Source: a virus. From it: a DNA stretch of 64,000 nt. Positions 26,296-49,000 of this stretch are shown here, piece by piece. The position numbers were made by a program, and so were the translations under genes. Positions within the stretch are counted from its first letter, which is position 1. Each line of letters begins with the position of its first letter. The notes under the pieces were generated by a model. The model was not told where the DNA came from. It made no database searches and was given only the letters and a program-made list of their open reading frames with translations. The DNA lies in IMG/VR virus record IMGVR_UViG_3300048035_000135, positions 1 to 64,000 of that record; one strand, given 5' to 3'.

Positions 26296-26350
26296 ACTTT
26301 CCTTTTTCCAATAATTAAATAACTCTTTATAATAAGTATGAATTAAGCAT

Positions 26351-26377
26351 AAAAAAAGGGGGAATCTCTTCCCCCTT
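26351..26377 (-). terminator. Intrinsic terminator after major capsid gene
   Basis: AAGGGGGAA-TCTC-TTCCCCCTT stem followed by a U-tract on the minus strand. Confidence 0.85.
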
Positions 26378-26404
26378 AATTTAAAGTATATCAATAATCA
26401 ATGA

Positions 26405-28051
26405 TTACTGAATTCTGTTTAATGAATCAACAAATACTTTTCCGTAGAACTCACCTCTTAGCATTTTCTTAGCGTAACGAGTCATTACACCTTTTCTAGG
26501 AGTGAAGTTTTTCGGGTCATATACAAGAGGAGTCATAATTAACGGAATATATGGTGCATATACTGCTCCAGTTTCAAGGAATTGAGTTCCTCTATATCCC
26601 ATAAGGATTACGTTCTCTTTCATATAAGGATTCTTATAAACTTGGAATCTACTATTTAATGAACCAACTTTTGATACACCGAATGCAAATTGAGCATCAC
26701 CATTATCCGCTGAAGAAGCGTAACCTGGAATTGACTCAATGATTGTTGCAACATCTGGAGATACTACTAAGAAATTAGCACCACCTCTAAGAGTTTTTTG
26801 GTGAATAGAGTTAGATACACCAGCGATTACAGTTCCTAAAGTCTGGAACCATGCTCCCTGATTGAATGCAGATGCTCCATATTCTGAATCATCCATTGCT
26901 GCGAATGCAGAACCATTCCATACTCTACCAGCTTTAGCTGACCAGTATCCTACTGATTTAGCATCTTGCATTAACATGTCTAAGATTTCAAAATCAATTT
27001 CTTGCGAAATGTATTCTGATAACATAGAAGTTAATTCTGCTTCAGCATCAATTGAGTGATATGCGTTCAAATCTTGTGCGAATTCAGGAGTCCACTGTGC
27101 TTTTAACTTTCTAGTCTTAGCAACGATTGGTAAACTCTTCATTTCAACATTCAATTCTGGAATATCGATATCAGCTTCAGGATTGTTTCTTAAAGAAGTT
27201 CCTGTTGCTTCGAAATCACCTCTTGATGTATCAGTTGGTTGTGCGTGATACTTTACAGTAACATTATCAGCCGCATCAGCCACACCTTTTACTACGAAAG
27301 TTACATCGCCATCAGCGTTGATTGTAGTATATTGTGGGAATTGGTCTGTAATTTTAGAAGAAACAACTCTAAATCCTCTGATACCTTTTGAATCTGCATC
27401 AACGAATTCATCGTGGTGTACTGTTAATTTATATACTGAACCAGCAGCATCCATTAAACCAGCATTAGATGCTGAGAACGCTGTATCGTAGTTGTAATCA
27501 CCAGCAGATAAAGAACCAGTTGTGTATTGGTTTGCTGCTAATGTTCCGTTTACTACGTTGTTACCAGTTACTTTATCGTTGATTGAGTATCCGAATCTAC
27601 CAGCACCATACAAACCACCTGAAGGGTCTGAAGATGTTTCTGTGATACCGAATACAGAATCAGCTTGTGAATCTTTTCCAGAACCACTAGCGAAACCTGG
27701 CTGAGAAGTACCATATTTAAAGTCTAAGTAAAATACTAGACCTGATGGTAAGTTCATTGGTTGTACTGATACGAAATCTTTTGCTACGATTTCTGAGAAG
27801 ATTCTTCTTACTAATGGTAAAGCTACACCAGCCCACTCTTCAGAGTTTGCCGAAGTACCAGTAGCAGAAGCTTCTTTTACTAATTGTCTTGCTTGATTTT
27901 CTAAAAGAGTCGCAACACCAGCTTTTTCAACTTCGTTTCCGATTCCTTCAAGAAGACCGGTTTTCTCCCACTTACCAGCTAAAGCTCTTGTAGCTTCAGA
28001 TAGTCTCGCAGTGTGAGAAGAACCTTCATTTAAAATGTTTTTTAAATCCAT
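26405..28051 (-). CDS. Major capsid protein (T4 gp23-like)
   Basis: LLENQ, LPLVRR, VQPMNLPSGLVFYLDFKY, AKTRKLKAQWTPEFAQDLNAYHSIDAEAELT, YAPYIPL, GVMTRY. Confidence 0.97.
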   Translation of the reverse strand: MDLKNILNEGSSHTARLSEATRALAGKWEKTGLLEGIGNEVEKAGVATLLENQARQLVKEASATGTSANSEEWAGVALPLVRRIFSEIVAKDFVSVQPMNLPSGLVFYLDFKYGTSQPGFASGSGKDSQADSVFGITETSSDPSGGLYGAGRFGYSINDKVTGNNVVNGTLAANQYTTGSLSAGDYNYDTAFSASNAGLMDAAGSVYKLTVHHDEFVDADSKGIRGFRVVSSKITDQFPQYTTINADGDVTFVVKGVADAADNVTVKYHAQPTDTSRGDFEATGTSLRNNPEADIDIPELNVEMKSLPIVAKTRKLKAQWTPEFAQDLNAYHSIDAEAELTSMLSEYISQEIDFEILDMLMQDAKSVGYWSAKAGRVWNGSAFAAMDDSEYGASAFNQGAWFQTLGTVIAGVSNSIHQKTLRGGANFLVVSPDVATIIESIPGYASSADNGDAQFAFGVSKVGSLNSRFQVYKNPYMKENVILMGYRGTQFLETGAVYAPYIPLIMTPLVYDPKNFTPRKGVMTRYAKKMLRGEFYGKVFVDSLNRIQ

Positions 28052-32911: not shown

Positions 32912-33529
32912 CTAAATAGAACAAACACCATCAATTTCACAGATGATATCTCGTACTAATGTATTAATCTTTTTATATGAAGGTGTTTTTGCCTTTCCAA
33001 CTACTGATTCGTTCATGGGTCTCATAAATGCGCCATGTGTTGATGGGTTTGAAACAAAATCCCAACAAATTAAATCAAAATCATCTTCTACAGTAACAGA
33101 TTTACCATTACTAGCTTCTTTTACAGAACCCATACCTCTTGAAGAGATACCAACAGTACAACCTGCCTCTAAAAGTTCTTTAAGGATGTTCCCTGCTGGA
33201 GTTTTAAGTATTTCTACCTTACCCATCACATCATCACCCTTCCAATATACTTCTCTGATGATATGTGAAGTGTTTTTTAGTTCAACTACCGAAGATTCAG
33301 GATGGTCTAACTCACCAAACGCTCTATTTTCTTTGATTTCTCTATTTTTGTATTTATCCACTTCTCTTTCTAAGATTGAACGTGGATAAACTCTACCATT
33401 TTGATTTTCAGCTTCAGCACGTTGCAGGACACCATTAACAATCAACCTACCATTGTTATCTTCCAATGATTCATTGATTTGCCTCTTAGTCATAGTAAAA
33501 GGAATTGTATCTATAAGTAATCTTCCCAT
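32912..33529 (-). CDS. Prohead protease (T4 gp21-like)
   Basis: NQNGRVYP, GELDHP, SHII, GISSRGMGS, DFVSNPS. Likely start MGRLL at 33529. Confidence 0.95.
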   Translation of the reverse strand: MGRLLIDTIPFTMTKRQINESLEDNNGRLIVNGVLQRAEAENQNGRVYPRSILEREVDKYKNREIKENRAFGELDHPESSVVELKNTSHIIREVYWKGDDVMGKVEILKTPAGNILKELLEAGCTVGISSRGMGSVKEASNGKSVTVEDDFDLICWDFVSNPSTHGAFMRPMNESVVGKAKTPSYKKINTLVRDIICEIDGVCSI

Positions 33530-33663
33530 TATGCTCCCCAAACTTTTCGTTTTCTATATAAATCAAACATGATTTGTGCTACTTCATATCTTATAAATAG
33601 ACGAATATTCTCCAAATCCTTATTTGAGAGTTCTTCTTTTAATATTTTCTTTTTGGAACTCAT
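33529..33663 (-). CDS. 44-aa hypothetical protein (not in ORF track)
   Basis: MSSKKKILKEELSNKDLENIRLFIRYEVAQIMFDLYRKRKVWGA; ATGA overlap upstream and TAATG overlap downstream. Confidence 0.7.
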   Translation of the reverse strand: MSSKKKILKEELSNKDLENIRLFIRYEVAQIMFDLYRKRKVWGA

Positions 33664-34993: not shown

Positions 34994-35050
34994 TTGTTTC
35001 CTCAGTTTTCGATAAAAGCAACTATATATTTTGTTATAAATATTATATTT

Positions 35051-36922
35051 TTAAGAATCCAATATGTTTTTCTCATCCAATAATGATAAACTTTCATCAT
35101 TGGTGTCCTCTTTTAACGATTCTATTATTATTTTTTTGGTTTTTCTATTAGATTTCATACGTCCAATAACTGCATCAATCTGTTCTTGATTGATAACGGA
35201 AGTAGCGTTATATCCTTCAGGTCTTATATCAATACTTTTGTTACCTAAAGGGTCTCTACCGAATGGTGATTTATCTTTACCATACGTTCCACCTTCCTTA
35301 GGTCTACCAGCACCTTCAAATCCCCCTTCAGGAGCTCCACCTTTGTTTTCACCGAATGCCCCACCAGCATCACCACCACCTTCTTGTGTTGTTAGTGCTG
35401 CTAAATCATGTGGTGTACCAAATGATTCTCCAGTCTTAACTGGGTCATTACCTTCTTGCTCAATCTGTTCGTGTCTGAATCCTAATTTCAAATCATTGAT
35501 AACTTTGAATTGTTCTTCTTTCCATTCATCTTCACTCATATTAAAGATGTTTTTGTAAACCCACTCTTGTGATACCATTCTTAAATCTTTGATATCACTT
35601 GCTAATGATACTTTTTCAGACCAAAGGTTTGCTTTTTCTTGCTCATAAATAATAGATGGAGTAGTAAGTTCTAATTCAAAGTTTACCAACTCTTCATCTG
35701 TATAACCTTGTGAGTATAAGTGTACAATTGCAATCTTAGTTAATTCTGAAAGTACAATCTTTTGGATTCTTTCTACAGAACGAGCAAATCTAATATCTTC
35801 TTGCGCTAATGTTGCTTTACCTTCAACACCTTCTTCGTATCCAATAAATGCTTTTGGAACTTTAAGTGCTGCCATCATTCTGTTTCTTAGGTATTCGATA
35901 TCATCAATACCACCAAACTCCATTCCACTTAGAGAATCAATCTCAGTACCACTTTGTCCACCTCTAACAGGTAAATAGTAATCTTCCAACATATTCTGCA
36001 TATTGAATTTAAGATTGTAATCACCAGTAGTTTCATCAATGTATGGAGTTTTCTTCATCTGGTCGATGATGTTACTCATATATGAATCAACCTCAGCAGG
36101 TGGAATATTACCAATATCAATTTTGAAAATTCTCTTTTCAGGTGCTCTCATAATTCGATGAATCATCATCGCATCTTCCATAAGAGTTAATTGTTTCCAA
36201 GTCTTTCTTGCACCTTCTAACAATGAACGTCCATAAGGTAGGAAGTTTGTATCTGTTAATAATCTGAAATGTGCTACTTGGAATGATTCTAAAAACTTAG
36301 TGTTGTTTCTTTGTGAAATTGCATTTGTGTTTTGTTCTTCAACCTCAAATCTTACTGAATAAGGATTATCTAAATCATATCCTTCTTCTCTTCTCGTTTC
36401 ATATGCCGATAGTGGTTGTGCGTTTACAACACCTAACTCATCATCAATATCTAAGTAAAGATAGTAATCACCATATTTGTTCATACCTCTTACCCAAGAC
36501 CATAAGTTGAACTCAATGTTCAATACATCATAGAATAAGTTTCTTAATGTTTTCTTTAATTTTTCATCAGATGATTTAACTCTAAGTACATCACCCATAT
36601 CGTTTTTAAGTGTACACTCATCTGAGTATATATCTAAGATTGATGAGATAATAGAATCTTTATCCATTGCCTCATAATCTGTATATAGTTCTAATTTATT
36701 CGAATGGTAGTTAAATCTTTCATTGTATGTTTGCCAATTCTTTCTTGAGTTAGAACCATGCAATCTTCCATACCTATCATAGTAAGCTGAACCTCTTCTA
36801 TTACCATCACTTTGTAATCTTGAAGAATCAACAACTTTTAATTTATCTTTACCGACTCTTCTAACAACTACCTGAGTTGAGAATAGTCTCTTTAATCTAC
36901 CGAATAATGAAGTATCTGCCAT
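35051..36922 (-). CDS. Portal protein (T4 gp20-like)
   Basis: LMEDAMMIHRIMRAPEKRIFKIDIGN, MLEDYYLP.RGG..GTEI..L.G, ALKVPK. Confidence 0.95.
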   Translation of the reverse strand: MADTSLFGRLKRLFSTQVVVRRVGKDKLKVVDSSRLQSDGNRRGSAYYDRYGRLHGSNSRKNWQTYNERFNYHSNKLELYTDYEAMDKDSIISSILDIYSDECTLKNDMGDVLRVKSSDEKLKKTLRNLFYDVLNIEFNLWSWVRGMNKYGDYYLYLDIDDELGVVNAQPLSAYETRREEGYDLDNPYSVRFEVEEQNTNAISQRNNTKFLESFQVAHFRLLTDTNFLPYGRSLLEGARKTWKQLTLMEDAMMIHRIMRAPEKRIFKIDIGNIPPAEVDSYMSNIIDQMKKTPYIDETTGDYNLKFNMQNMLEDYYLPVRGGQSGTEIDSLSGMEFGGIDDIEYLRNRMMAALKVPKAFIGYEEGVEGKATLAQEDIRFARSVERIQKIVLSELTKIAIVHLYSQGYTDEELVNFELELTTPSIIYEQEKANLWSEKVSLASDIKDLRMVSQEWVYKNIFNMSEDEWKEEQFKVINDLKLGFRHEQIEQEGNDPVKTGESFGTPHDLAALTTQEGGGDAGGAFGENKGGAPEGGFEGAGRPKEGGTYGKDKSPFGRDPLGNKSIDIRPEGYNATSVINQEQIDAVIGRMKSNRKTKKIIIESLKEDTNDESLSLLDEKNILDS

Positions 36923-36952: not shown

Positions 36953-36986
36953 TATAAATATACAAAAAATATTTTTAATATCCAAA
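36953..36986 (-). promoter_or_regulatory. Overlapping host-type and late-type promoter motifs upstream of portal
   Basis: TTTG-N20-TATATTTA overlaps TATTTATA at 36953-36960. Confidence 0.55.
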
Positions 36987-36988
36987 TT

Positions 36989-38557
36989 TTATAGTAACCA
37001 ACTTATATCCTCATCACCTCTACCAGTATTAATCTTCCAAGCATCTTTTGCTTTAGATTGATTTGTTTTAAAAACACCCTGCTTAGATGTTAAGGATAAT
37101 GCTCTTTTATTTAATTCGATTCCCTGCTGTCTTAATTTAAGTGCCGTATCTCTTACCCAAAGTCCTGTTGAAAATGATAATACTAAATCATCATTATAAC
37201 CTTGTTGAGCTTCAGCTCTATTACCATTCCATATAAAAACAAAAAGTTCATCAATCAATCGTTTAGAACGAACAATCGGAACTCTTTCTCTCATATAAGT
37301 ATCTAACTTTGAGATAACTAATGGACGTGTTCTACTTGTCATTGAAAAACCAGGTACCATTTGTGATTTATCTTTTAAATCATATGCTTTTTGTAAATGA
37401 ATATCTTCATCTACATATCCAAACTCTTTGTATGAATAATATAAGTTTTTGTAATTTCTATCTATTGCTTCTTGGATTACTGCCCAACCAATATTTGCGT
37501 TCTCAATCACTAATAGAGCATCGTTCCATTCAGTTGCAACATTTACTAACATATTACCATAATCTTTAGTACCTATCTTACCTTTATATTCTGCTACTTG
37601 CTCTACACTTTCTACATCAAATACGTGAAACGCTGAATAATCTGCACCATCACCTCTCGCAACATCGGCAACCACTACATAATCTTTTGTATAGTTTGGT
37701 TGTGACCATAACCAATAATTACCATCGTATCCTCGTTTCTCTACTGGGTCTTGAACATGGGTTTCTTCATACCATTGTAGAAGTTGTCCATCTACGACTG
37801 TGTAACCAGATGAAATAAAATCACAATCACATTCTTGTGCTGCCATCTTCTCACCTAAGAGTTGAGTTTGTTCTGCTCTCCACTTATCATTTCTTTCAGG
37901 ATGTACAGTCCAATGAAGTTTGATTGGATTCCATCCATCACCCTCTTCACCTTTAATCCAAGTTTTATGAAAGAAGTTACCAACACCATTTGGAGTTGAT
38001 AATACGATTGCCTTTCCACCAGTTGATAATGTAGATTGAGCTGATGCCCATATCTCATCAATACCTTTAATAAATGCACCCTCATCTATAATCAACATTG
38101 ATAATGCTTCAGAACGACCTGCATCACCACTAGCTGATGTTGCTTTGATTGTTGAACCATTTCGTAATCGTAAGGATAGTTTGTTATCTTCTTCAGTATC
38201 ACCCCTTAACCAACTCGGTAAGTTTTCATGCATATACCTAACCTTAGTAACTAAGTTTTTAGCTACCTCTTGCTTAGTTGCGATTACCAATATATTTTTA
38301 TCATCGTGGAATAACATCATCCATAAAGAATAACCAGCGGATAATGTTGAGATACCTAATTGACGGGATTTAAGAATTACATTATATCTATGTTTATCTA
38401 ACTCACCCATTACATCTTCTTGAAATGGATACAAATCAAAAAGTATCTTACCTCTCTTTGGGTGTTGAATGTAACAATACTTTTTAAAAAAGTAAACTGG
38501 GTTTTTAGCACATTTAACGTACTCTTCCCTAATAAGTTCTTTTATGTTTTTGCTCAT
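36989..38557 (-). CDS. Terminase large subunit (T4 gp17-like)
   Basis: KSRQLGIST Walker A, LIIDE Walker B, STPNG, ADVARGDGADYS, NDDLV. Likely start MSKNIK at 38557 (ATGA overlap). Confidence 0.95.
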   Translation of the reverse strand: MSKNIKELIREEYVKCAKNPVYFFKKYCYIQHPKRGKILFDLYPFQEDVMGELDKHRYNVILKSRQLGISTLSAGYSLWMMLFHDDKNILVIATKQEVAKNLVTKVRYMHENLPSWLRGDTEEDNKLSLRLRNGSTIKATSASGDAGRSEALSMLIIDEGAFIKGIDEIWASAQSTLSTGGKAIVLSTPNGVGNFFHKTWIKGEEGDGWNPIKLHWTVHPERNDKWRAEQTQLLGEKMAAQECDCDFISSGYTVVDGQLLQWYEETHVQDPVEKRGYDGNYWLWSQPNYTKDYVVVADVARGDGADYSAFHVFDVESVEQVAEYKGKIGTKDYGNMLVNVATEWNDALLVIENANIGWAVIQEAIDRNYKNLYYSYKEFGYVDEDIHLQKAYDLKDKSQMVPGFSMTSRTRPLVISKLDTYMRERVPIVRSKRLIDELFVFIWNGNRAEAQQGYNDDLVLSFSTGLWVRDTALKLRQQGIELNKRALSLTSKQGVFKTNQSKAKDAWKINTGRGDEDISWLL

Positions 38558-39153
38558 TTCTTTCCCAATTTCCAAAGAAACTGAGTTGATATGATTGGTT
38601 GAAATTGGTCGTTTAATCCAATACCTAATCCAAACGCCTGCTTCTTTCTCGTTCTGTATAATATAGAACCACCAACATAGTTAAATTGTTTTGATGTTCC
38701 ATTTAATCCGAATCCTACATAGAATTCTCTTGGATTTATGTATTCAGTTTGAGTTACAGTAGTTGTAGGTATTATAAGTTCTGATTCAACTAACCTATTG
38801 AAGAGTGTGTTTTTCCATATTGTATCTGTGATGGTTACGAAACCTAATGAATCTAATTCAATCTTATCAACAAACACATTTTTAGCGTAATAATCTTTTA
38901 GAACTTCTAAAGTATCAATTGGAGTATTTACTAAAATAGAATCAACTTGTGTAACTATTTTTGTTTTCCATTTAGGAACATAAACTTTCTTGTCTATGGT
39001 AATTGTATCGTATTTCGTTTCTACCTTTGTAACAATAGTAGGCTCGGATGGGGTAATTTCTCCCCCATCTCCACTACATTGTCTAAGTAATAATATTACA
39101 ATTATTAAAACTAAGATTATTAGATTTCTAATATCTCCGAAATACTTTTTCAT
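38554..39153 (-). CDS. Membrane-anchored protein, possible spanin-like lysis protein
   Basis: N-terminal TM helix ending LLRQC, DT-rich linker, C-terminal amphipathic beta-strands. Confidence 0.45.
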   Translation of the reverse strand: MKKYFGDIRNLIILVLIIVILLLRQCSGDGGEITPSEPTIVTKVETKYDTITIDKKVYVPKWKTKIVTQVDSILVNTPIDTLEVLKDYYAKNVFVDKIELDSLGFVTITDTIWKNTLFNRLVESELIIPTTTVTQTEYINPREFYVGFGLNGTSKQFNYVGGSILYRTRKKQAFGLGIGLNDQFQPIISTQFLWKLGKK

Positions 39154-39161
39154 CGGCCACC

Positions 39162-39488
39162 TTATTTTTTAGTAGCTGATTTTCTTTTTGAAGGTTTTCT
39201 ACCTTTTCTGTTTCCACCTTTTGCAGCTTCAACAACATCTTTAGATTGTTTAGCTAAGTTTTTACCAGCAGCTTTAACGTCTTTGAGTTCTTCTTTAACT
39301 CTTTTAACTCTACGCTTAACTTCTGATTTTACTTCAGCTACATCTTCTTTGATATCTTCTACAGTATCTTCTACTACATCAGGAATAAAATCTCCATCTT
39401 TATCTTTGATTTTTCCTGTATATAATAATACTACATATGTTGCTACTGCAACTCCGATAACTAATGCTATGATTAATAATGTACTCAT
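39162..39488 (-). CDS. Small membrane protein
   Basis: N-terminal TM helix, DKDGDFIPD motif, coiled coil, basic tail; late motif at 39521-39528. Confidence 0.6.
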   Translation of the reverse strand: MSTLLIIALVIGVAVATYVVLLYTGKIKDKDGDFIPDVVEDTVEDIKEDVAEVKSEVKRRVKRVKEELKDVKAAGKNLAKQSKDVVEAAKGGNRKGRKPSKRKSATKK

Positions 39489-39553
39489 AATTTGCCTTTT
39501 TAAAATTAAACTTCTTATACTATAAATATGGTAATATATTTAATAAAACTATT

Positions 39554-41641
39554 TTACCAAGTTCTACACGCCCAATATCTTGCTTTCCACTTAGGGCCTG
39601 GATTATCACAATTCATTCTATCTCTAAATGCTTTTCTTCGAGCTGGGTCTGATTTTTTAATTCTCATTGTTTTCTCACCACCCTTGCCTTTGTGACCAAA
39701 GTTTACTTTCACTACATTACCTTTATCATTGTTAACATAAACTTTAAACTTCTTTACATCACCTTGCATAATTTTATTGAGTTCTACTTTTCTTCCTTGA
39801 TATTCTGCTTCGTTGATTGATTCGTGCATATCTTCGATAGTGGCTGCCATATCACCAATAGCCATAGTTACGTTTCCGTTTCTTTGGTATAGATAATACT
39901 TAACACCTTTTGGATTCTCTGGATTTTGTAGAATGATTCTTTCTACTTTTTGTTTACCAACTAAAGTTTTTCCTTTGGATACTACAAATTCCTTTTCAAC
40001 TCCACCTCTCATTGATGAACCATACTTAATCGTAATCTTATCACCTTTTTTGAGTTTATCGTAAACCTTTAATCTTTTTTTCATATCCATAGATTTGGCT
40101 TCGGTAAACAATGTTTCACCACTTTTTGATTCAACACTAATTTTTGCGTTTGGATATTTCTTTTGTAGAATCATAAATATAGCTGGAACTAATTGTGGAG
40201 TTTTTACTAACTCTTGATAAACCACCTTACCTTTTTCAGAAACCACTATAGTTGCTGGGTAGCTACCTTTTTTAGCTGCTTTATGAATCTCACCTCTAGT
40301 AGCTTCATCGATTGCTTTTGGATATGGAGTATTTTTAGCTAACTTCAAAAGAGCTTGTAAATCTGATGATTTATTTCTATTGTACTTATCTGCGTTCTTT
40401 TTATTTTTGAAGATAGCTGATACTTTCTTTCCGTTATCATCAATCATAATAATGATACCTTTTTTACCAAAGTGTCTTTCATCAGTTACAGATAATCCTT
40501 CTTCAACTTTCTCACCTGCTTTTAATGGTGCCATATCTTTATACATATTGTACAACCAATCCATAAAATCAGGAGTATTTTGGAATACTTTTCTATAATG
40601 TTTTTTGAATTTCTTTTTGAAATCTTCAAAATCTTTAGATGCATCAGCTAACAAATGAATGTTAGACATTACACCTTCTTCAATAGATTCTTTTGTAGTT
40701 CTCCATCCACCACCTGCTGCTTTGTATTGTTTAGCAGCCCAAGCATTAGCGTAAGCCGATGGATATACATCGAACTTTTGTTTAGCTTGTGATTTATAGT
40801 AAGACCATTTAGATGGATTTGTAGGAACATTCTTTTCTGTAAGTTCGATTACTCTTTCTTCTAACTTTTTACCTTCAACAGTTTTGGTAATTATATCAAC
40901 ATGCCCTTGAATATAGTGATGTTCTTTTTCCAATCCCATCATCTTTGCCATTTTCATAATGTTTTTTTGTAGATTCTTAGCTACCATTATGTAATCTTTT
41001 TCAGGTTTGTAACCATCTCTCTGAATATGTTCTTCTACAAAGAAAAGTACATCATGTAATCTTGCACTTCTTTCAGCCATATCCATATCAACACCTTTAG
41101 ATTCTATATCCATATATAGAGATGATGCGCCAGGACAAACGTGAAAGTATTTTGTGTGATAATTACCGATTCTAAAATCTTCTTTATCATTCTCATCTTC
41201 ATTTTGGCCACTCATAGTTTCGTATTCATATGAATGAGTTACTTCATTGATGAATTTATTTACAAACATTCTAATGTTTTCATTCATACCTTCTTTTAGT
41301 GAAGTAATTTTAGCACCTACAGGTCCACCAATAAACATCGATGCCCAATATGAAATAGCATCTATAATTTCATACCCATCCCATTTAGCTGCTTTAGCGA
41401 TTGGAACTCCGTGATTCATTTCTATTGAATCTTCCCATTCTCTTTTACCAGCGTGCTTAGCTTTATTCGCTTTAGGAAACATATTTGCTACTCTCTGAGA
41501 TTCAGAATGAAAGTTAGCATCTGTTAATGCACCTATTAGGATATGTTTTAATGCATGGTGTACTTCCGGCTCTGAACCTTTGTACCCTTTGAAGTATGCA
41601 TCTAAATCTTTTTTGACTTTTTTATTTAATCTGGTATTCAT
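39554..41641 (-). CDS. Multi-module hypothetical protein (putative internal head polyprotein)
   Basis: Modules separated by LKEG, INEV, LTEK, IEEG, VEEG, IDEA, FTEA and INEA. Includes YPSAYANAW...GGGW and NFG...RRKAFRDRMNC...ARYWAC modules. Confidence 0.6.
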   Translation of the reverse strand: MNTRLNKKVKKDLDAYFKGYKGSEPEVHHALKHILIGALTDANFHSESQRVANMFPKANKAKHAGKREWEDSIEMNHGVPIAKAAKWDGYEIIDAISYWASMFIGGPVGAKITSLKEGMNENIRMFVNKFINEVTHSYEYETMSGQNEDENDKEDFRIGNYHTKYFHVCPGASSLYMDIESKGVDMDMAERSARLHDVLFFVEEHIQRDGYKPEKDYIMVAKNLQKNIMKMAKMMGLEKEHHYIQGHVDIITKTVEGKKLEERVIELTEKNVPTNPSKWSYYKSQAKQKFDVYPSAYANAWAAKQYKAAGGGWRTTKESIEEGVMSNIHLLADASKDFEDFKKKFKKHYRKVFQNTPDFMDWLYNMYKDMAPLKAGEKVEEGLSVTDERHFGKKGIIIMIDDNGKKVSAIFKNKKNADKYNRNKSSDLQALLKLAKNTPYPKAIDEATRGEIHKAAKKGSYPATIVVSEKGKVVYQELVKTPQLVPAIFMILQKKYPNAKISVESKSGETLFTEAKSMDMKKRLKVYDKLKKGDKITIKYGSSMRGGVEKEFVVSKGKTLVGKQKVERIILQNPENPKGVKYYLYQRNGNVTMAIGDMAATIEDMHESINEAEYQGRKVELNKIMQGDVKKFKVYVNNDKGNVVKVNFGHKGKGGEKTMRIKKSDPARRKAFRDRMNCDNPGPKWKARYWACRTW

Positions 41642-41643
41642 TA

Positions 41644-42069
41644 TTATGCCCCTGTCTTACTATTAGTAGGTGATTTACCTTTGGTTCTATTTCCACCTTT
41701 TTTAGTATCACCTGCTTTCTTTTGGTCTGCTCGTTTTCTTCTTACAAATGCGGCTCTACCTTTCGGCCCTAACTTATTGGCTTTCTCTTTTGATAAACAA
41801 GCTGCATATGCATCACCTTTTTTACCATCACCACACTTACCTAACTTCTGGCCATCACTTCCGTATCTATCCCAGCCACCGCCATCGGTAGAACCTGTCT
41901 TACCTTTACCTAACCACTTTCTTAAATCTTCGTTCATAAGATTTTCTGTACAAAGATGTTCGTATAAATCAGACAAAGCAAATTCAACACATAATGTTGA
42001 ATCTGTTCCATTCGATGAATATGAATCAAATGATTCTTTTAAGAATTCTTTAATTTGATGTTTGTTCAT
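41644..42069 (-). CDS. Hypothetical basic protein
   Basis: MNEDLRKW...GGGW...KCG...ACL module following an xxE linker. Confidence 0.6.
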   Translation of the reverse strand: MNKHQIKEFLKESFDSYSSNGTDSTLCVEFALSDLYEHLCTENLMNEDLRKWLGKGKTGSTDGGGWDRYGSDGQKLGKCGDGKKGDAYAACLSKEKANKLGPKGRAAFVRRKRADQKKAGDTKKGGNRTKGKSPTNSKTGA

Positions 42070-42649
42070 TTTTAAGTTTTCCTATAAAGTTGTTTCTAAA
42101 GGTTTCAAAATCTTTATCAATTTTTTCTACCAACTCTTCTTCAGTCATACCTTCGGCCCATTCTTCAACAGAACCATCTTCATTTATGAATGAAGCTTTT
42201 AGAGTTGTTTTTAAAACTTCTTTTTCTAACTCAGCTTGTTTTAACCAAGCCTCAGCGTTAGCTAATAATTTCTTTCTTTCATATTCCTCATACTTACCTT
42301 CTAACTTTAATTTGTGTTCCATTTCTATAACACAATTTAAACACATACCATGTATAGCTTTCATTTTTAAATCAGCTGTACCTGGTTCGGTACAATTACA
42401 AGAACTATTTTCTTTGTTGCAGTTTGGAAAATCTTTTAATTCTTCTCTGAGTTTAGAAAGTTTTCCAACTTTAACTTTGTAACCTTTTCGTTGTTCCCAC
42501 TTTTGACCTTTATCATCAGTCCAAGTTTCCCCAACATCTCTTCTTTCTATAACCTTATCAGTAAATGAGATTGTTTTTTTTGTTTGGGTTTTATGCTTCC
42601 CATCCAACATCTCTTTTACTGCTTTTACATTCTTTAACTTATTTGACAT
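42050..42649 (-). CDS. Hypothetical protein with a Cys-rich possible Zn site
   Basis: CNKENSSCNC...HGMCLNC; late motif at 42663-42670. Confidence 0.65.
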   Translation of the reverse strand: MSNKLKNVKAVKEMLDGKHKTQTKKTISFTDKVIERRDVGETWTDDKGQKWEQRKGYKVKVGKLSKLREELKDFPNCNKENSSCNCTEPGTADLKMKAIHGMCLNCVIEMEHKLKLEGKYEEYERKKLLANAEAWLKQAELEKEVLKTTLKASFINEDGSVEEWAEGMTEEELVEKIDKDFETFRNNFIGKLKNEQTSN

Positions 42650-42681
42650 AACTTTGTTTTTATATAAATATGGAAATTAAT

Positions 42682-45006
42682 TTAAAAATACATTAATCCT
42701 AATATTTGATTCAATGATGCAAAAGTACCAGTTAGTTTATATGTTCCACCTTTATATGTAAACACAATTCCTTCATTTGGTACAATCTTATCTTTACCAC
42801 CTACTGCGGCTAATCTTTCCAATTCCATTCTTAGTTTTTCAATCTTTTTAACATCACCACTTTTCTGAACTGCTTTCACAGTTTTATCTAATTCAGATTT
42901 CATAGTTCTAAGCGCTTCATCAGGATTAACTGTTAATGCTGAACTCATAAATGAAAGTACATCTGCGCCAACACCTAAGAATATATCTTCAAACTTTCTA
43001 AGGTTTTGTTTAGATATCTTTGCTTTATCTTGCTTATCTGTTTTAGTTGCCCACGCTAATACTTTAGAATCTGAAATATTCTTTTTATTCAATCTGAATG
43101 AGTTATCAAAGAATGCCCATCTTTTAACTAATCCCATTTTGGTTTTGTTATCTAATGTAGATGGTGAATTTTTATCAACATATTGTTCCCACCATGCTTG
43201 ATGATAATCAGCAACACCATTAGAATCTTTTAGTTTAAATTCTTTTTGGATTTTGTTTAGTTCTGAATAGTATTTACCTTGCTTCTTTGAAAGTTCTTCC
43301 GATTGTGGTAACTTAACTACAGGTGGTCCTTGGATTGTATAATTTTTTTGAACATCTTGATTGATTTGTTTTATCATACCAGCTAAAATTTTAGCCGCTG
43401 ATGTATCAGCTCCAATTGCTTTCCCATCCATATTATATTGCATTGTTCCGTGGAATACTAATAAAGGTTGTCCGTAAGGAATTACATTTACTGATGTTGG
43501 GAATATAACTTCTATATTCATAAAGGATGAACCTTGATTGAATATTTTATCTCTTTGTGCTTTTGATAATGATTTGATTGCTTTGGATAAATCTTCCATA
43601 GCAAAATTGTATGCATCTGTTAGTCCACCTCTACCTTGAAACTTAGATGCTACTCCACTAATATCCAATGCGTTTTCACCACTATTCTTCAGATGACCAC
43701 CATTACGAGCAGCGATTAAACCTTTATCATCTCTCCAACTAATAGCAAGTGCTTGTCCATCTGTTTTTTCTCTAGCGAATTCTAACTTACCATTTAATGC
43801 GTTTGATATAATTGTTTTTAAATCACCAAATGTTAGATTCATTTGTGTATCGAATGGGTGAGCCATATGTCCATATGCCCCACCTTCGGTAATCAATCCT
43901 TCGTGAATCTGAGTTTGTTCATCATCGCCATCTTTTAATCTTTGTTTTGGTGATGGTGCTTTTACTGGTGCATCTTTTGTATCATCGATAGATTCTTCTG
44001 CACCTAAGAAATCAATTAACTTATATCCAACAGATGTAGCTACACCTTTGATTTTATCAACCCAACTTTTGTATGCTTTAGTACCTCTTAAATCAATGTA
44101 TCTTTGGGATGCCGCATCTAACCCATCAATACCAGATGGAAAGTATGATACTGGATATTTATCATCAATACTTCTTGCATCATCTGCATATATAGAATCT
44201 TCATCAGTATCTAATATATAATCAACTACCATCCAACCCAATCTTCTTGCGGTTTCATCACCAACGGCTTTATATGATTTAGAATTACCATATGAAAATC
44301 CTGGCCCATCATCAACACCTTGTGAGTTACCACCAATTCCAACTTTAGTTGAACTTGATTCAGATATTAACTTATTAAAATCAAATGTAGATAAAAATCT
44401 TTCCATTGTGATTTCAATCTTACCTAATCTATTTGTTAAGAACTTATATATCTTTGGGTCGAACTTACCATAAGCTCTTTTGAATCCTGCTTTTCTGATT
44501 TCATCATCGCCTGATGATAGTGATTTCCTAACTTCAGTTCCACTAATACCTTCACCTTGCGCTGGTGCTACATAAACATATCCCTTTTCTTCATATCCTT
44601 TTTCAATTTTATCAGGATGATATGGTTCAAAGTATTTACCTTTTAATCTATATCTATCTTTTTCACCAACAACAGTAACAAATGCCGTTTTATCTTTATC
44701 GAACTTACCTATAATTTCTTTTGGGGCGTATGGGTTTTTGATTTGAACAATCTTAGATGCTGGAACTCCAAACATCTTTATCATTACCATTTTCTTTTCT
44801 TTAAACTTAAATGGTGATTTAATATTATCTGTTTTATTAGATGTACCAATATAAACATTATCTCTACCAAATTGTTTTACCAAATGGTCGTAAGTTAAAT
44901 AATGTCCTTTATGAAACGGTTGAAATCTACCAGCGTAAACTACTACCTTTTTTTCTATTCCTTCAGTTAAGATTCCCTTAACCCATTCTTTAATTAATTT
45001 TCCCAT
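42682..45006 (-). CDS. HxGH (cytidylyltransferase/NMNAT-like) domain fused to a ligase-like nucleotidyltransferase domain
   Basis: N-terminal GRFQPFHKGH and ISGTEVRK; C-terminal EKTDG, AARN, NIEVI, LVFH, EGIVF, YKLTG. Confidence 0.7.
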   Translation of the reverse strand: MGKLIKEWVKGILTEGIEKKVVVYAGRFQPFHKGHYLTYDHLVKQFGRDNVYIGTSNKTDNIKSPFKFKEKKMVMIKMFGVPASKIVQIKNPYAPKEIIGKFDKDKTAFVTVVGEKDRYRLKGKYFEPYHPDKIEKGYEEKGYVYVAPAQGEGISGTEVRKSLSSGDDEIRKAGFKRAYGKFDPKIYKFLTNRLGKIEITMERFLSTFDFNKLISESSSTKVGIGGNSQGVDDGPGFSYGNSKSYKAVGDETARRLGWMVVDYILDTDEDSIYADDARSIDDKYPVSYFPSGIDGLDAASQRYIDLRGTKAYKSWVDKIKGVATSVGYKLIDFLGAEESIDDTKDAPVKAPSPKQRLKDGDDEQTQIHEGLITEGGAYGHMAHPFDTQMNLTFGDLKTIISNALNGKLEFAREKTDGQALAISWRDDKGLIAARNGGHLKNSGENALDISGVASKFQGRGGLTDAYNFAMEDLSKAIKSLSKAQRDKIFNQGSSFMNIEVIFPTSVNVIPYGQPLLVFHGTMQYNMDGKAIGADTSAAKILAGMIKQINQDVQKNYTIQGPPVVKLPQSEELSKKQGKYYSELNKIQKEFKLKDSNGVADYHQAWWEQYVDKNSPSTLDNKTKMGLVKRWAFFDNSFRLNKKNISDSKVLAWATKTDKQDKAKISKQNLRKFEDIFLGVGADVLSFMSSALTVNPDEALRTMKSELDKTVKAVQKSGDVKKIEKLRMELERLAAVGGKDKIVPNEGIVFTYKGGTYKLTGTFASLNQILGLMYF

Positions 45007-46019: not shown

Positions 46020-49000
46020 TTATGCAGATGGGAAGTTTTCAGCTGATACTAATGTTGCTGCTGTACTACCCATTGATGTTTGTGATAACGGTCTCGTTGC
46101 TATTATATCTAATCCTTTAAAATAAGCACCACACCTAGTCGCTTGAATTCCACCACCTGAACTACCATCTAATGCTAAATTCATAAATAATTGAACTCTA
46201 CAATATTGTGATTGCGCTTCTTCAGGTATTGTGTATGAAATTACACTACTACCTACCCTAAACCTAGTTTTAAATACATCATCTGCTCCGTTTAAATCAA
46301 ATCCACTATTTGTTATATCTGAATTTACTCTTTTCCAAACACCATGAGTATCACCAGTGACATAATACACACCCATTGGAGAATCAGGAATATCAGTAGC
46401 TGTATAATATTGGTTAGCGCTAGTTCTTTTAAGATAATCTAATTGTAATGCAAAATCTGCATTAGCGTGCATTCCAGTGGTTGTAGAGAATGAACCCACT
46501 GCTGACATTCCTGAAATTGTAAGTCTTGTTTCATATGGTAGTAAATGAAAATACCATTGTTTCATAAGAATCATTGTAGAACTATCTCTATCTGTCATAT
46601 AATACAAATCGCCATCATTAACAACCTGTCTACCAATATTTTTAGCTTCTATTAATCCAATTTCAGTATCGAATATTTTATACACAACACCACCAGCAAC
46701 TTTTCTAACATATAAGTTAGAACCTGAGATTTCACCTGATGAGTTAAGTTCGAATGCTGGTGATGAATCTGGCGAAGCTAAATTTGTTGATGATTCAATA
46801 GAATTAGAACCTATAGTAAGTCCACCAATTGTACCATCATTTGCGTTTACAGTACCATCTACTTCTAATTTAGTACCATTCCAAGATAATTTAGAATTAG
46901 AACCAGTACCACCTAAGAAGAATGTTCCTGCATCTAAATCAATTCTTGAACCTGCGGTTGGTGATACGTTGGTTGAATCTATTCTACCTGTTGATATAGC
47001 GTTACCTGATAGTGTAGTTGTTTTTGGAGTACCATTAACATTAAAACTTTCAATACCTATTTGCTTACCCCCAGTATCGTGGTACAACAACATAGCTGGG
47101 AAATAATCTTCATTAGTATTTAATCCACCATAACTTGTATTTGTATCATACGACCAAGCTGGTGTTGAAAAATCACTATTTACAAATATTCTATATGTAG
47201 CCCCACCATCGGACTTAAGTGTGATTTCGATTCTTAATTTTGTATCTGTTCCAGTTACCCAAGGAACATTTCCTTCTTTTGGTCCTCCTGTATATCCGAT
47301 GGAATTAGATTCCCAATCCACAGTGTTAGCATTAAGAATACTACCATTTTCTATCACTCTTACATCATTGTAATATTGAGAAGAGTCTTGAACCGAAGTC
47401 AGATAAACACCATGTCCTATATGGTTATAGCTATCTGCTGTGGTTAAATCTAAATCTGAATCTATATCCGTAAATCCAATGAATACATATACACCCTCAG
47501 TAGTTGTACCACGACTAGAACCACCCCCACCATCATTTACAAGAACATCCCAAACTGCAGTTGTATTGGTACTTCTTTGGAATGGTTTTCTTGTTACAAT
47601 TCCTTTAGTCCATCCATTTGCATTACTACCTTGATATCGGTTATACCCTACTTGCCCAGCTGTCGATGGTATTTTGTTTTCCGTAAGATTTTGAATACGC
47701 CATCTTAGAGTAGAATCAACTGCTTGACCAAATAATTGGTCAAATGTACTAGCTGCGAAATCTTCTGGATTGGTTACTGTAACATTACCTGTAATATTTA
47801 ATGTTGAGTTACCAGCATCCCAAGCAAATGCATTTGTTAATGAGAAATCTCCATTATCTCCTATATACAAAGGAGTATCTGCTTTACTATAGTTACCTAC
47901 TCCAGTAAATATTTTACCAGAATCAAATTTGATTCCAGCAATATCACCACCTGTTAGATGAATAGCTGAACCAGTCATCTCTCCATTTGATTTTAATCGT
48001 AAATTACCATTTGTTGAATCTATTGATGTGTTTGATATAGTAAACCCACCAATCGAACCAGCTGATGCGTTTACAGTACCTGACATACTTACATTACCTG
48101 CTGAATCTAAATGGAAGTTAGAACCTGATATTTCTATTACTCCATTAGAACCGCTAATAAATTGAGTGTTAGTATTTCCAACAAAAAACTTATCTACTTC
48201 AATGTTTACATTAGAACCACTAATTAATAATGACCTATCAGTATTATTCCAAGCTAAGTAACCACTAGTCGCTGCACTTCCACTCATTCCACTACCATTT
48301 CCACCTAAGTAGAAATTTCCACTACTATCTAAAAATGATGTGAAATCGGAAAGTAAACCATCGGTTCCTTGAATTCCATTGTGGAATCCAAACACCTGTG
48401 AATTCATTAATAATCCCGGAGAACCAATTGGTCCGATACCACTTAAACTCGCATCTAAGTATGAGAAGTCTTGGTTATTATCACCTTGCTGCCCTTGAGC
48501 TCCCTGCTTAGATTTAGATAAACTCATAGTTTTATCAACCTTTACAGTTCCAGCTGATAAATTACCACTACCATCTTTTACTTCTTTAATTTCAATATAA
48601 TCTAATCTAACTATTCCACTTTCATCAGGATGACTGGATATAAACAGTGGTGATATGTAAGCTGCGTTTGTATGAATATTTTTTGGATTATTAATATCAG
48701 GAGCTTCACCACTATTAGTTCCAGCTGATGTACCATGACCTGAGAAGTAACCTCTCTTAGTTACCCAATCTGTACCCTCTCCATCACCAAATGAAAACCC
48801 AGCCGCTCCTATATAATGTTGACTACTAAAACTGTTAGTACCACTACTATTACGTTTTGTGGTTTCATTACTCCAACCATTTACACCTATATATACTAAC
48901 CCACTACCAGCAACTCTTTTAAACCTAGCTTCAACATAATAAGTTTTAGTATCATCATAGGCAACTATATCTTTACCTACTATCCAAGCCCTATCATTAT

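What the first reader, a model, noticed from the sequence alone, without database searches (positions are those of the whole stretch)
42682..45006. HxGH nucleotidyltransferase fused to an RNA-ligase-like domain, with protease-type linkers
Seen: the N-terminal domain has GRFQPFHKGH and ISGTEVRK (NMNAT/PPAT/cytidylyltransferase type). The C-terminal domain has, in order, EKTDG, AARN, NIEVI, LVFH, EGIVF and YKLTG. Established: this order matches motifs I (KxDG), Ia, III, IIIa, IV and V of covalent nucleotidyltransferases (RNA/DNA ligases, capping enzymes). The three regions begin after ILTEG, LISES and LITEG. Inference: a virion-packaged and possibly cleaved enzyme set for NAD+ regeneration and RNA repair (countering NAD-depleting and anticodon-nuclease defences), or a new nucleotide-transfer pathway.
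Basis: partly seen in the sequence, partly recalled or inferred. Interest (0 to 1): 0.72.

Follow-up and report, generated by a model that had tools for sequence, protein, structure and literature searches.

The report
Head-module polyprotein with new RNA-ligase-like enzyme
A marine T4-type phage encodes one protein that joins an NMNAT-like nucleotidyltransferase to a previously unclassified RNA-ligase-shaped enzyme, with the parts meeting at sites like those cut by the phage's head protease, so it is probably an enzyme kit packed in the capsid, though cutting, packaging and activity are all untested.

Summary

- **N-terminal domain (aa 18-195):** a real HxGH (HIGH) nucleotidyltransferase. NMNAT is its nearest relative, but it scores far below NMNAT family cut-offs.
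- **C-terminal module (aa 375-774):** it folds confidently (pLDDT 90.6). Two independent fold searches rank ATP-dependent RNA ligases first (Z 8.0-8.5). Motif I, Ia, III, IIIa, IV and V residues are about 99% conserved across 150 divergent representatives.
- **What is unusual about the module:** no Pfam, PHROG, NCBIfam or PDB sequence model recognises it. It carries a helical insert of about 175 aa between motifs IIIa and IV, has no OB domain, and has a single motif V lysine.
- **Distribution:** at least 1,752 clusters at 50% identity, effectively phage-only. In 160 of 160 fetched loci it lies just upstream of TerL, portal and a gp21-type protease.
- **Relatives:** they keep HxGH first and the ligase module last, with HD, CCA-adding and other domains inserted between.
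- **Junctions:** the LTE, ISE and ITE sites are conserved down to 21-33% identity and match T4 gp21 sites. Leaders resemble T4 capsid-targeting sequences.

Packaging and cleavage are plausible but unproven. The NAD-salvage reading is weak, because complete relatives lack NadV. Earlier agents of this scan reached the same reading on other genomes.

The parts
42682..45006 (-). Whole ORF, 774 aa (P0001), including the stop codon
44962..45006 (-). N-terminal 15-aa amphipathic leader ending in I-L-T-E|G. Candidate capsid-targeting propeptide and first protease-type site.
   Evidence: The leader is conserved (M..L...LV..IL.E) in homologues down to about 21% identity, whatever domain follows it. Leaders of this kind occur only on head-module ORFs of the window. 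They resemble T4 gp22, gp24 and IP leaders.
44422..44955 (-). HxGH (HIGH-superfamily) nucleotidyltransferase domain, aa 18-195. HxGH motif at aa 26-35, ISGTxxR at aa 154-161.
   Evidence: PF01467, 30.4 bits against a cut-off of 21. phrog_395 and phrog_3041. Best PDB match is NadM/NMNAT 2qjt, E 7.5e-6, over aa 21-75 only. NMNAT NCBIfam models score far below their cut-offs.
44356..44370 (-). Second junction, L-I-S-E|S (aa 213-217)
   Evidence: An h-x-E is conserved here in 18 of 19 same-architecture homologues and as 'EWLI(N/K)E|S/A' in the long forms. The segment after it is disordered in the model.
43900..44358 (-). Conserved middle module of unknown fold, aa 217-369
   Evidence: It is conserved among homologues. 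The AF2 model is poor, mean pLDDT 55.8. There is no Pfam, PHROG or Atlas hit.
43882..43908 (-). Third junction, a tandem I-H-E|G and L-I-T-E|G (aa 367-375), immediately before the ligase-like module
   Evidence: [LI][IL]xE precedes the conserved GGxxGH in 339 of 368 family proteins. 26 have C or M in place of E. pLDDT is below 50 here.
42685..43884 (-). Covalent-nucleotidyltransferase (RNA-ligase-like) module, aa 375-774
   Evidence: AF2 pLDDT 90.6, pTM 0.87. Foldseek top hits are RNA ligases. VIA-align: NgrRnl Z 8.5, REL1 8.4, Trl1 8.2, T4 Rnl1 8.0, T4 Rnl2 8.0. Motif conservation.
43756..43770 (-). Motif I, E-K-T-D-G. K414 is the predicted nucleotidyl-accepting lysine.
   Evidence: K is conserved in 145 of 146 representatives, D in 146 of 146 and G in 146 of 146. 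hhalign aligns it with K35 of T4 Rnl2.
42784..43314 (-). All-helical insertion of about 175 aa between motif IIIa and motif IV (aa ~565-741)
   Evidence: Secondary structure and pLDDT 86-97 in the model. Fold matches to ligases skip it and span model residues 7-400 with only about 190 aligned residues.
42727..42774 (-). Motif IV (E-G-I-V-F) and motif V (Y-K-L-T-G) beta-hairpin
   Evidence: E376 is conserved in 146 of 147, G377 in 147 of 147 and K388 in 146 of 146. Numbering is by module.
32912..33541 (-). gp21-type prohead serine protease, the candidate processing enzyme
   Evidence: PF03420 Peptidase_S77, E 3.9e-35. phrog_207.
42050..42649 (-). Conserved downstream neighbour (199 aa, Cys-rich with a coiled coil). 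Function unknown.
   Evidence: It follows the ligase module in most of the first 80 IMG/VR loci. No family hit.

Best explanation
This is a late, head-module polyprotein of an uncultured marine phage with a T4-type head.

**Shown**
- It has three conserved parts:
  - an HxGH nucleotidyltransferase;
  - a conserved module of unknown fold;
  - a 400-aa enzyme with the covalent nucleotidyltransferase fold.
- The third part's closest solved relatives are ATP-dependent RNA ligases. It keeps the motif I lysine (K414) and motifs Ia, III, IIIa, IV and V.
- It belongs to a clade that no sequence model recognises. The helical domain is inserted between motifs IIIa and IV, there is no OB domain, and there is one motif V lysine.

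**Inferred mechanism, with my estimated probability for each step**
1. The 15-aa leader takes the protein into the prohead core, as T4 capsid-targeting sequences do (about 0.55).
2. The gp21-type protease cuts after LTE-15, ISE-216 and ITE-374, releasing three proteins that stay in the head and enter the cell with the DNA (about 0.5).
3. The ligase module forms a Lys414-NMP adduct and seals or end-modifies broken polynucleotides. Active enzyme: about 0.9. RNA, such as nuclease-cut tRNA, as substrate: about 0.55.
4. The HxGH enzyme makes an adenylylated small molecule such as NAD+, or acts in the same nucleic-acid end chemistry (NMNAT proper: about 0.3).
For: **Fold and motifs**
- Model pLDDT 90.6.
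- RNA ligases top both Foldseek and the Foldseek-independent VIA search. They score Z 8.0-8.5 with 181-207 aligned residues, against 5.2-6.9 for DNA ligases and capping enzymes.
- Catalytic residues are about 99% conserved across 150 representatives.
- hhalign places EKTDG..AARN on T4 Rnl2 EKIHG..CAKR.

**Head context**
- The window encodes an S77 protease, a Gp23 capsid protein and a T4-type portal, and TerL.
- In 160 of 160 IMG/VR loci the order is HxGH...lig, then TerL, portal and protease, all on one strand.
- Mel-JY01 has the same order.

**Cleavage logic**
- The window's capsid protein has LVKE|AS at aa 58-63, where T4 gp23 is cut.
- Junction sites are conserved, including in Mel-JY01 at 33% identity (IFSE|D and IIAE|GG).
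- T4 Alt, a packaged enzyme, is cut at ITE-6 and LTE-619, and gp21 carries LIE-9 (PMC5694885, PMC9026906).
- Stand-alone ligase homologues carry leaders such as MKTFLDFSKQTLVE|GG and MITFRQYISE|GG. These closely resemble T4 IPIII MKTYQEFIAE|A and IPI MKTFKEF....
- Such leaders occur only on head-module ORFs of the window.

**RNA theme**
- Relatives insert CCA-adding (PF01743), HD (PF01966) and Pol-beta-palm domains between the same two end domains.
Against: - There is no proteomic, cleavage or enzymatic evidence for any family member. Only one cultured phage carries the module.
- Foldseek E-values are only about 1e-2, and Z of about 8 is near the background ceiling that the tool itself describes.
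- No sequence model of any ligase family matches.
- About 7% of family members have C or M instead of E at the ligase junction. Cleavage there is therefore not universal.
- One conserved h-x-E lies inside the HxGH fold, so the motif alone is not diagnostic.
- Motif V lacks the second lysine found in classical ligases.
- Relatives G002 and Mel-JY01 also carry a canonical Rnl2-family ligase next to a kinase elsewhere in the genome. The module is therefore not their only RNA ligase.
- NadV is absent from complete relatives.
Confidence: 0.5

Rival explanations
1. The enzymes are the same, but the protein is not packaged. It is a cytoplasmic late multi-domain protein for RNA repair or nucleotide metabolism. 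The h-x-E junctions are flexible linkers, or conserved recombination joints where domains are swapped, and are not protease sites.
For: - Domain content varies between the constant end domains exactly at these joints.
- About 7% of members lack Glu at the ligase junction.
- T4's own RNA ligases are cytoplasmic, and rnlB also sits beside head genes.
- No packaging evidence exists.
Against: - The N-terminal leader is conserved regardless of the domain that follows. It resembles T4 capsid-targeting leaders.
- Leaders of this type are confined to head-module ORFs.
- The gene is invariably placed with TerL, portal and protease in 160 of 160 loci.
Confidence: 0.25
2. The ligase-like module acts on the phage's own DNA during or after packaging. 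It might seal nicks, or adenylylate or cap genome ends for protection. It is not an RNA repair enzyme.
For: - The gene is always 0.6-5 kb upstream of TerL on the same strand.
- DNA ligases are also among the fold matches, at Z 5.4-6.9.
- The only on-target sequence hint is a non-significant match of motif I to LigA, E 3.3.
Against: - RNA ligases outrank DNA ligases in both fold searches.
- The module has no OB or other DNA-clamping domain.
- Fused partners in relatives are RNA-end enzymes: CCA-adding and HD.
Confidence: 0.12
3. The protein has a mainly morphogenetic role, like the tail-fibre attachment activity of T4 gp63 (Rnl1), and catalysis is incidental.
For: - The gene lies between the giant fibre gene and the head genes.
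- The precedent of T4 gp63 rests on established knowledge and was not tested here.
Against: - Near-invariant catalytic residues across at least 150 divergent clusters argue for selected catalysis.
- There is no sequence relationship to Rnl1.
Confidence: 0.05

Closest known systems
ATP-dependent RNA ligases of the covalent nucleotidyltransferase superfamily: Naegleria NgrRnl (Rnl5), T. brucei REL1, fungal Trl1-LIG, T4 Rnl1, T4 Rnl2
   Same: - Same nucleotidyltransferase fold: Z 8.0-8.5, about 190 aligned residues.
- Same order of motifs I, Ia, III, IIIa, IV and V, with a conserved KxDG lysine.
- Phage origin and a likely polynucleotide end-joining chemistry.
   Different: - No detectable sequence similarity to any of them.
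- A helical domain of about 175 aa is inserted between motifs IIIa and IV, instead of a terminal accessory domain.
- Motif V is K-x-T rather than K-x-K.
- A conserved GGxxGHxxHPFD segment lies upstream of motif I.
- The module is embedded in a polyprotein in the head module.
T4 packaged head proteins with capsid-targeting leaders: Alt, IPI, IPII, IPIII, processed by gp21
   Same: - A short N-terminal leader ending in I/L-x-E.
- A gp21-type protease in the genome.
- Enzyme cargo, as with Alt.
- Site types ITE and LTE (PMC5694885, PMC9026906).
   Different: - Here up to three parts, and in relatives many more, are strung in one polypeptide with internal sites.
- The cargo is nucleotidyltransferases, not an ADP-ribosyltransferase or a restriction inhibitor.
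- Packaging is unproven.
Phage polyvalent proteins (Iyer et al. 2017, PMC5512222)
   Same: Large multidomain phage proteins with variable enzymatic domains. Relatives reach 2,137 aa with five or more recognisable domains. They are predicted to be delivered with the DNA.
   Different: - That paper reports no association with RNA ligases.
- The architecture here has fixed ends (HxGH first, ligase module last) and gp21-type junctions rather than MuF or portal fusions.
NadM / archaeal NMNAT (HIGH-superfamily adenylyltransferases)
   Same: GRFQPFHxGH and ISGTxxR motifs. Best PDB and NCBIfam matches.
   Different: - Similarity covers only about 60 residues.
- Scores are 26-31 bits against cut-offs of 127-449.
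- There is no Nudix domain.
- No NadV partner in complete relatives. Phage NadM is reported always to co-occur with NadV (PMC9503650).
T4 tRNA repair pathway (Pnkp plus Rnl1)
   Same: The proposed biological logic is the same: phage enzymes that heal and seal nuclease-cut tRNA. Relatives add CCA-adding and HD end-healing domains.
   Different: - No polynucleotide kinase domain was recognised in the polyprotein.
- Some relatives have a separate canonical Rnl2 plus kinase pair elsewhere in the genome.
- The proposed delivery route, pre-made in the capsid, is different.

Membership tests
Covalent nucleotidyltransferase superfamily (ligases / capping enzymes) | Motif I KxDG with a nucleotidyl-accepting lysine | tested here: met
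   EKTDG at aa 413-417. K is conserved in 145 of 146, D in 146 of 146 and G in 146 of 146 representatives.
Covalent nucleotidyltransferase superfamily (ligases / capping enzymes) | Collinear motifs Ia, III, IIIa, IV and V lying on the expected beta-strands | tested here: met
   R65, E130, F149/H150, E376-G377 and K388 (module numbering) are about 99% conserved. They lie on strands 60-64, 125-132, 146-155, 377-382 and 385-389 of the model. Motif V has one lysine (K-x-T) rather than K-x-K.
Covalent nucleotidyltransferase superfamily (ligases / capping enzymes) | Nucleotidyltransferase domain fold | tested here: met
   The top ten VIA-align hits are all ligases, Z 6.9-8.5. Foldseek top hits are RNA ligases, with probability up to 0.98 but E of about 1e-2.
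Covalent nucleotidyltransferase superfamily (ligases / capping enzymes) | Formation of a covalent enzyme-NMP intermediate | not testable with these tools
   Needs a labelled-nucleotide adduct assay with a K414 mutant as control.
Named RNA ligase families (Pfam RNA_ligase PF09414, RNA_lig_T4_1 PF09511; Rnl1-Rnl5) | A significant match to a family sequence model, or the family-specific accessory domain | tested here: not met
   No Pfam, PHROG or NCBIfam hit on aa 370-774 at E up to 1. No significant PDB sequence hit, even with 20- and 42-sequence profiles. The accessory helical domain is inserted, not terminal.
DNA ligases / mRNA capping enzymes | An OB-fold domain following motif V | tested here: not met
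   The protein ends 14 residues after motif V. These families also score lower in the fold search, Z 5.2-6.9.
CTP_transf_like (PF01467, HIGH nucleotidyltransferases) | A Pfam match above the gathering score, with the HxGH motif | tested here: met
   30.4 bits against a cut-off of 21, over aa 23-161. HKGH lies at aa 32-35.
NMN adenylyltransferase (NadM / archaeal NMNAT) | A score above the curated equivalog or subfamily cut-off | tested here: not met
   Best scores are 30.8 bits against 418, 28.9 against 127 and 26.2 against 181. All matches cover only aa ~21-78.
NMN adenylyltransferase (NadM / archaeal NMNAT) | Co-occurrence with NadV in phage genomes (PMC9503650) | tested here: not met
   PF04095 is absent from complete relatives G001 and G002 and from Mel-JY01. 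It is also absent from the window's own genome, but that genome is only 52% complete.
T4-type capsid-targeted, gp21-processed head proteins | A gp21-type (S77) protease and T4-type head genes in the same phage | tested here: met
   PF03420 E 3.9e-35, Gp23 E 1.3e-77, Portal_T4 E 3e-72.
T4-type capsid-targeted, gp21-processed head proteins | A short N-terminal leader ending in I/L-x-E, plus I/L-x-E at the processed borders | tested here: met
   LTE-15, ISE-216 and ITE-374. They are conserved in homologues. Compare the T4 leaders and Alt sites ITE-6 and LTE-619 (PMC5694885).
T4-type capsid-targeted, gp21-processed head proteins | Presence of the processed protein in virions | not testable with these tools
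   No proteome was found for the one cultured carrier, Mel-JY01.
Pfam DUF6267 (PF19782) | An HMM match | tested here: not met
   The Atlas's nearest cluster has this family on 24% of its members. The HMM hits neither this protein, nor 20 homologues, nor four related genomes. A distant relationship remains possible.
Polyvalent proteins (Iyer et al. 2017) | A single polypeptide with many unrelated effector domains, in a phage virion or packaging context | tested here: inconclusive
   Relatives have 3-5 or more recognisable domains in proteins of up to 2,137 aa, in the head module. This window's protein has only three parts. The MuF or portal fusions typical of that class were not seen.

The most novel reading that the evidence does not exclude
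The two constant end domains form a new coupled nucleotide-transfer pathway that is delivered pre-made in the capsid. There are two versions of the coupling. In one, the HxGH enzyme regenerates NAD+, which this ligase clade uses as its AMP donor, as LigA does. In the other, the HxGH enzyme directly pre-adenylylates 5'-phosphate RNA ends for the ligase module to seal. Either way, the phage could repair host-cleaved tRNA within seconds of injection, before any phage gene is expressed.
Probability: 0.12. Interest if true: 0.85.

Novelty: new variant of a known kind. Interest (0 to 1): 0.66.

Why it matters
If the reading holds, three things follow.

1. **An unclassified ligase clade.** It defines a large, phage-restricted clade of RNA-ligase-like enzymes that current sequence models do not recognise. 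It covers at least 1,752 clusters at 50% identity but appears in only 3 of 50,697 GenBank phage records. It also has an unusual insertion topology.

2. **A wider role for T4-style packaging.** It extends the T4 scheme of capsid-targeting leader plus gp21 cleavage from small internal proteins and Alt to modular enzyme polyproteins. Their domains (CCA-adding, HD, Pol-beta-like, cupin) are exchanged between fixed end modules.

3. **A testable counter-defence idea.** It suggests that abundant marine phages inject RNA-repair enzymes against tRNA-cleaving defences. This can be tested directly in Microcystis phage Mel-JY01.

The ligase module could also be of practical interest as a new ligase scaffold.

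Tried and rejected
**Sequence searches on the C-terminal module**
- Pfam, PHROG and NCBIfam gave nothing.
- PDB sequence searches with the single protein and with two profiles gave only spurious lysine-rich eS6 hits, plus a non-significant LigA motif I hit at E 3.3.
- hhalign against T4 Rnl2 aligned only motifs I and Ia, with P 0.076. This is suggestive, not significant.
- DUF6267 was a lead from the Atlas, but its HMM matched nothing relevant.

**Middle module**
- The AF2 model was too poor to search (pLDDT 55.8).
- The Atlas gave no usable hit.

**Genome context**
- NadV, CCA-adding enzyme and tRNA genes were not found in the window or its genome. The record is only 52% complete, so this is uninformative.
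Context was taken from IMG/VR loci instead.
- No paper on Mel-JY01, DUF6267 or this family was found.
- The genome-contig scan found only 13 loci, all on MAG contigs and none in an isolate genome. I rejected a cellular origin on that basis.

**Chance**
- I rejected a chance explanation for the motifs on conservation grounds.
Full report
**1. The observation**

The minus-strand ORF 42682..45006 encodes 774 aa.
- GRFQPFHKGH at aa 26-35 and ISGTEVRK at aa 154-161.
- EKTDG at 413-417, AARN at 432-435, NIEVI at 497-501, LVFH at 516-519, EGIVF at 745-749 and YKLTG at 756-760.
- Junction strings ILTEG at 12-16, LISES at 213-217 and LITEG at 371-375.

**2. Setting**

The window is part of a 95.9-kb IMG/VR virus record estimated to be 52% complete. 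It has about 33% GC and nearly all genes lie on the minus strand.

It encodes a T4-type head:
- Peptidase_S77 (gp21-type) at 32912..33541.
- Gp23-type capsid protein at 26405..28051.
- T4-type portal at 35051..36922.
- TerL at 36989..38575.

The ORF lies between a 3,454-aa fibre-like gene and this head block.

**3. N-terminal domain**

- aa 18-195 match CTP_transf_like (30.4 bits, cut-off 21) and two phage 'cytidyltransferase' PHROGs.
- The nearest solved proteins are NadM and archaeal NMNATs, but only over aa ~21-87.
- All NMNAT NCBIfam models score 26-31 bits against cut-offs of 127-449.

It is therefore a genuine HIGH-superfamily nucleotidyltransferase with NMNAT as nearest neighbour, but not a demonstrable NMNAT.

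NadV is reported to accompany every phage NadM (PMC9503650). It is missing from two complete 271-276 kb relatives and from Mel-JY01.

**4. C-terminal module**

*Sequence searches.* No Pfam, PHROG, NCBIfam or PDB sequence model matches aa 370-774.

*Distribution.* An exhaustive phmmer search found 1,752 representative clusters at 50% identity.
- The module starts at query residues 1-3, exactly at the LITEG junction.
- In most representatives it lies at the extreme C-terminus of proteins of 400-1,900 aa.
- A few carry it internally or at the N-terminus, for example P0143.

*Structure.* With a 20-sequence alignment, AlphaFold2 gave pLDDT 90.6 and pTM 0.87.
- Foldseek's top matches are almost all RNA ligases: Rnl3, Trl1, T4 Rnl2 and T4 Rnl1. 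Probabilities reach 0.98 but E is about 1e-2.
- VIA-align does not depend on Foldseek. It also put RNA ligases first.

| Match | Z |
|---|---|
| NgrRnl | 8.5 |
| TbREL1 | 8.4 |
| Trl1 | 8.2 |
| T4 Rnl1 | 8.0 |
| T4 Rnl2 | 8.0 |
| DNA ligases | 5.4-6.9 |
| Capping enzymes | 5.2-5.4 |

- The RNA-ligase matches align 181-207 residues, spanning model residues 7-400.

*Catalytic residues.* The residues that define covalent nucleotidyltransferases sit on the expected strands. They are each conserved in 145-148 of about 147 informative representatives. Protein numbering:

| Motif | Residues |
|---|---|
| I | K414, D416, G417 |
| Ia | R434, N435 |
| III | E499 |
| IIIa | F518, H519 |
| IV | E745, G746 |
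| V | K757 |

hhalign places EKTDGQ..AARN on T4 Rnl2 EKIHGT..CAKR, whose K35 is the adenylylated lysine. The statistic is weak, P 0.076.

*Differences from all known ligase families.*
- An all-helical insertion of about 175 aa between motifs IIIa and IV.
- No OB or terminal accessory domain.
- Motif V is K-x-T.
- A near-invariant GGxxGHxxHPFD segment begins the module.

I conclude that it is an active covalent nucleotidyltransferase of an unclassified, RNA-ligase-like clade. Substrate and nucleotide donor are unknown.

**5. Middle module**

aa 217-369 are conserved among homologues but folded poorly, with mean pLDDT 55.8. No family or Atlas match was found. Its function is unknown.

**6. Family architecture and range**

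*Related architectures.*
- Close relatives (78-98% identity) have the same HxGH...ligase layout.
- Longer relatives, up to 2,137 aa, keep HxGH at the N-terminus and the ligase module at the C-terminus.
- Between these they insert HD, PolyA_pol/CCA-adding (with its RNA-binding domain), DUF5661, cupin and ROS/MucR zinc-finger domains. One begins instead with a Pol-beta palm.

*Range.*
- Only 3 of 50,697 GenBank phage records carry the module. They are two 'huge phage' metagenomic genomes and Microcystis phage Mel-JY01, the only cultured one.
- Among 185,579 species genomes only 13 loci appeared. All are MAG contigs, four of them binned as Pelagibacter, and none comes from an isolate.

*Synteny.* Two sets of 80 IMG/VR loci were fetched, one at 64-98% identity to the window's module and one from a more divergent branch. 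In 160 of 160 the order is (fibre) - HxGH...ligase - TerL - portal - protease on one strand. Mel-JY01 shares it.

**7. Are the linkers protease-type?**

*What is known from T4.*
- Published T4 work shows gp21 cuts after Glu in I/L-x-E.
- Alt, a packaged enzyme, is cut at ITE-6 and LTE-619, and gp21 carries LIE-9.
- The first 10 residues of IPIII suffice for capsid targeting (PMC5694885; PMC9026906).

*What this protein shows.*
- The three sites are LTE-15, ISE-216 and ITE-374.
- The window's own capsid protein has LVKE|AS at aa 58-63, the position where T4 gp23 is processed.
- The junction upstream of the ligase module is [LI][IL]xE|GG in 339 of 368 family proteins.
- The leader (M..L...LV..IL.E) and the post-HxGH site are conserved down to about 21% identity. 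They are also conserved in Mel-JY01 at 33% identity, as IFSE|D and IIAE|GG.
- Residues around the sites are of low confidence in the models.
- Stand-alone ligase homologues have 7-42-aa leaders ending in h-x-E|GG in 15 of 19 cases. Some are strikingly like T4 IP leaders: MKTFLDFSKQTLVE|GG and MITFRQYISE|GG, against T4 MKTYQEFIAE|A and MKTFKEF....
- Within the window, such leaders occur only on head-module ORFs: capsid, scaffold-like and core-like proteins, the 141-aa ORF and this one. They do not occur on tail ORFs.

*Caveats.*
- 26 of 368 members have C or M in place of Glu at the ligase junction.
- One conserved h-x-E, at aa ~70, is inside the HxGH fold.
- Overall motif enrichment is modest: 4 observed against 1.4 expected.
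- Nothing shows actual cleavage or packaging.

**8. Function**

- The CCA-adding and HD domains fused into relatives point to RNA, especially tRNA, end repair. Phage literature links CCA-adding enzymes and ligases to repair of nuclease-cut tRNA (PMC7824862).
- Against simple redundancy, G002 and Mel-JY01 also carry a canonical Rnl2-family ligase beside a P-loop kinase elsewhere in the genome. G001 has the kinase but no Rnl2-family ligase.
- The polyvalent-protein survey reports no RNA-ligase association (PMC5512222). I found no paper describing this family.

**9. Verdict**

- The ligase-fold inference is well supported.
- The packaged-and-cleaved inference is plausible and consistent with several independent lines of evidence, but it is unproven.
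- The NAD-regeneration inference is weak.

This is a new variant of known kinds: a new RNA-ligase-like clade, inside a T4-style polyprotein with a capsid-targeting leader and protease-type junctions.

Earlier agents of this scan reached essentially the same reading on relatives in other genomes. My tests here were run independently of those notes.

Noticed in passing
window 41644-42069 (-): The 141-aa ORF begins MNKHQIKEFLKE|S, a leader like the T4 capsid-targeting sequences. A basic Cys-containing body follows. It may be another packaged internal protein.
   Followed up: partly
window 39554-41641 (-): The 695-aa ORF has several h-x-E-[GSA] sites (aa 115, 320, 379, 444, 609) separating small basic modules. 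Only two unnamed PHROGs hit it. It looks like another processed polyprotein, and parts of it recur beside TerL and portal in related loci.
   Followed up: partly
window 42050-42649 (-): A 199-aa Cys-rich (C..C.C...C..C) coiled-coil protein with no family hit follows the ligase module in most related loci. It is a conserved partner of unknown role.
   Followed up: partly
window 38554-39488 (-): An Rz-like i-spanin (phrog_739) and a 199-aa ORF lie directly upstream of TerL and overlap its start. The 199-aa ORF has an N-terminal hydrophobic segment ending in a lipobox-like LLRQC. This looks like a possible spanin pair inside the packaging module.
   Followed up: no
window-wide; e.g. 42663-42670, 39521-39528, 36953-36960, 35035-35042, 33592-33599: TATAAATA occurs 24 times against 13.5 expected, and 22 of the 24 are on the + strand. 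On the coding strand it therefore reads TATTTATA, mostly in short gaps just upstream of structural genes, which makes it a candidate late-promoter element. A one-mismatch copy, TATTTATT, ends 3 nt before this ORF's ATG.
   Followed up: partly
L158, L160, L169-L173, L179-L182 (IMG/VR loci); also P0140 and P0142: A sub-branch has ...KELLLM|GG instead of ...LLxE|GG at the ligase junction. Two database proteins start M|GGAYGH. This may be internal initiation replacing proteolysis, or a gene-calling artefact.
   Followed up: no
window 46020-56384 (-): A 3,454-aa fibre-like protein contains many internally repeated modules of about 230 aa (…FEG(I/V)TD(K/R)TS.Y…GSVTI…).
   Followed up: no
window 25636-26394 (-): A PhoH-like gene sits immediately beside the major capsid gene.
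   Followed up: no
L090, L091, L094, L100 (genome contigs): Four of the 13 cellular-genome hits are contigs binned into Pelagibacter or Pelagibacteraceae MAGs. They are probably mis-binned phage contigs. This is a weak hint at a SAR11 host.
   Followed up: no
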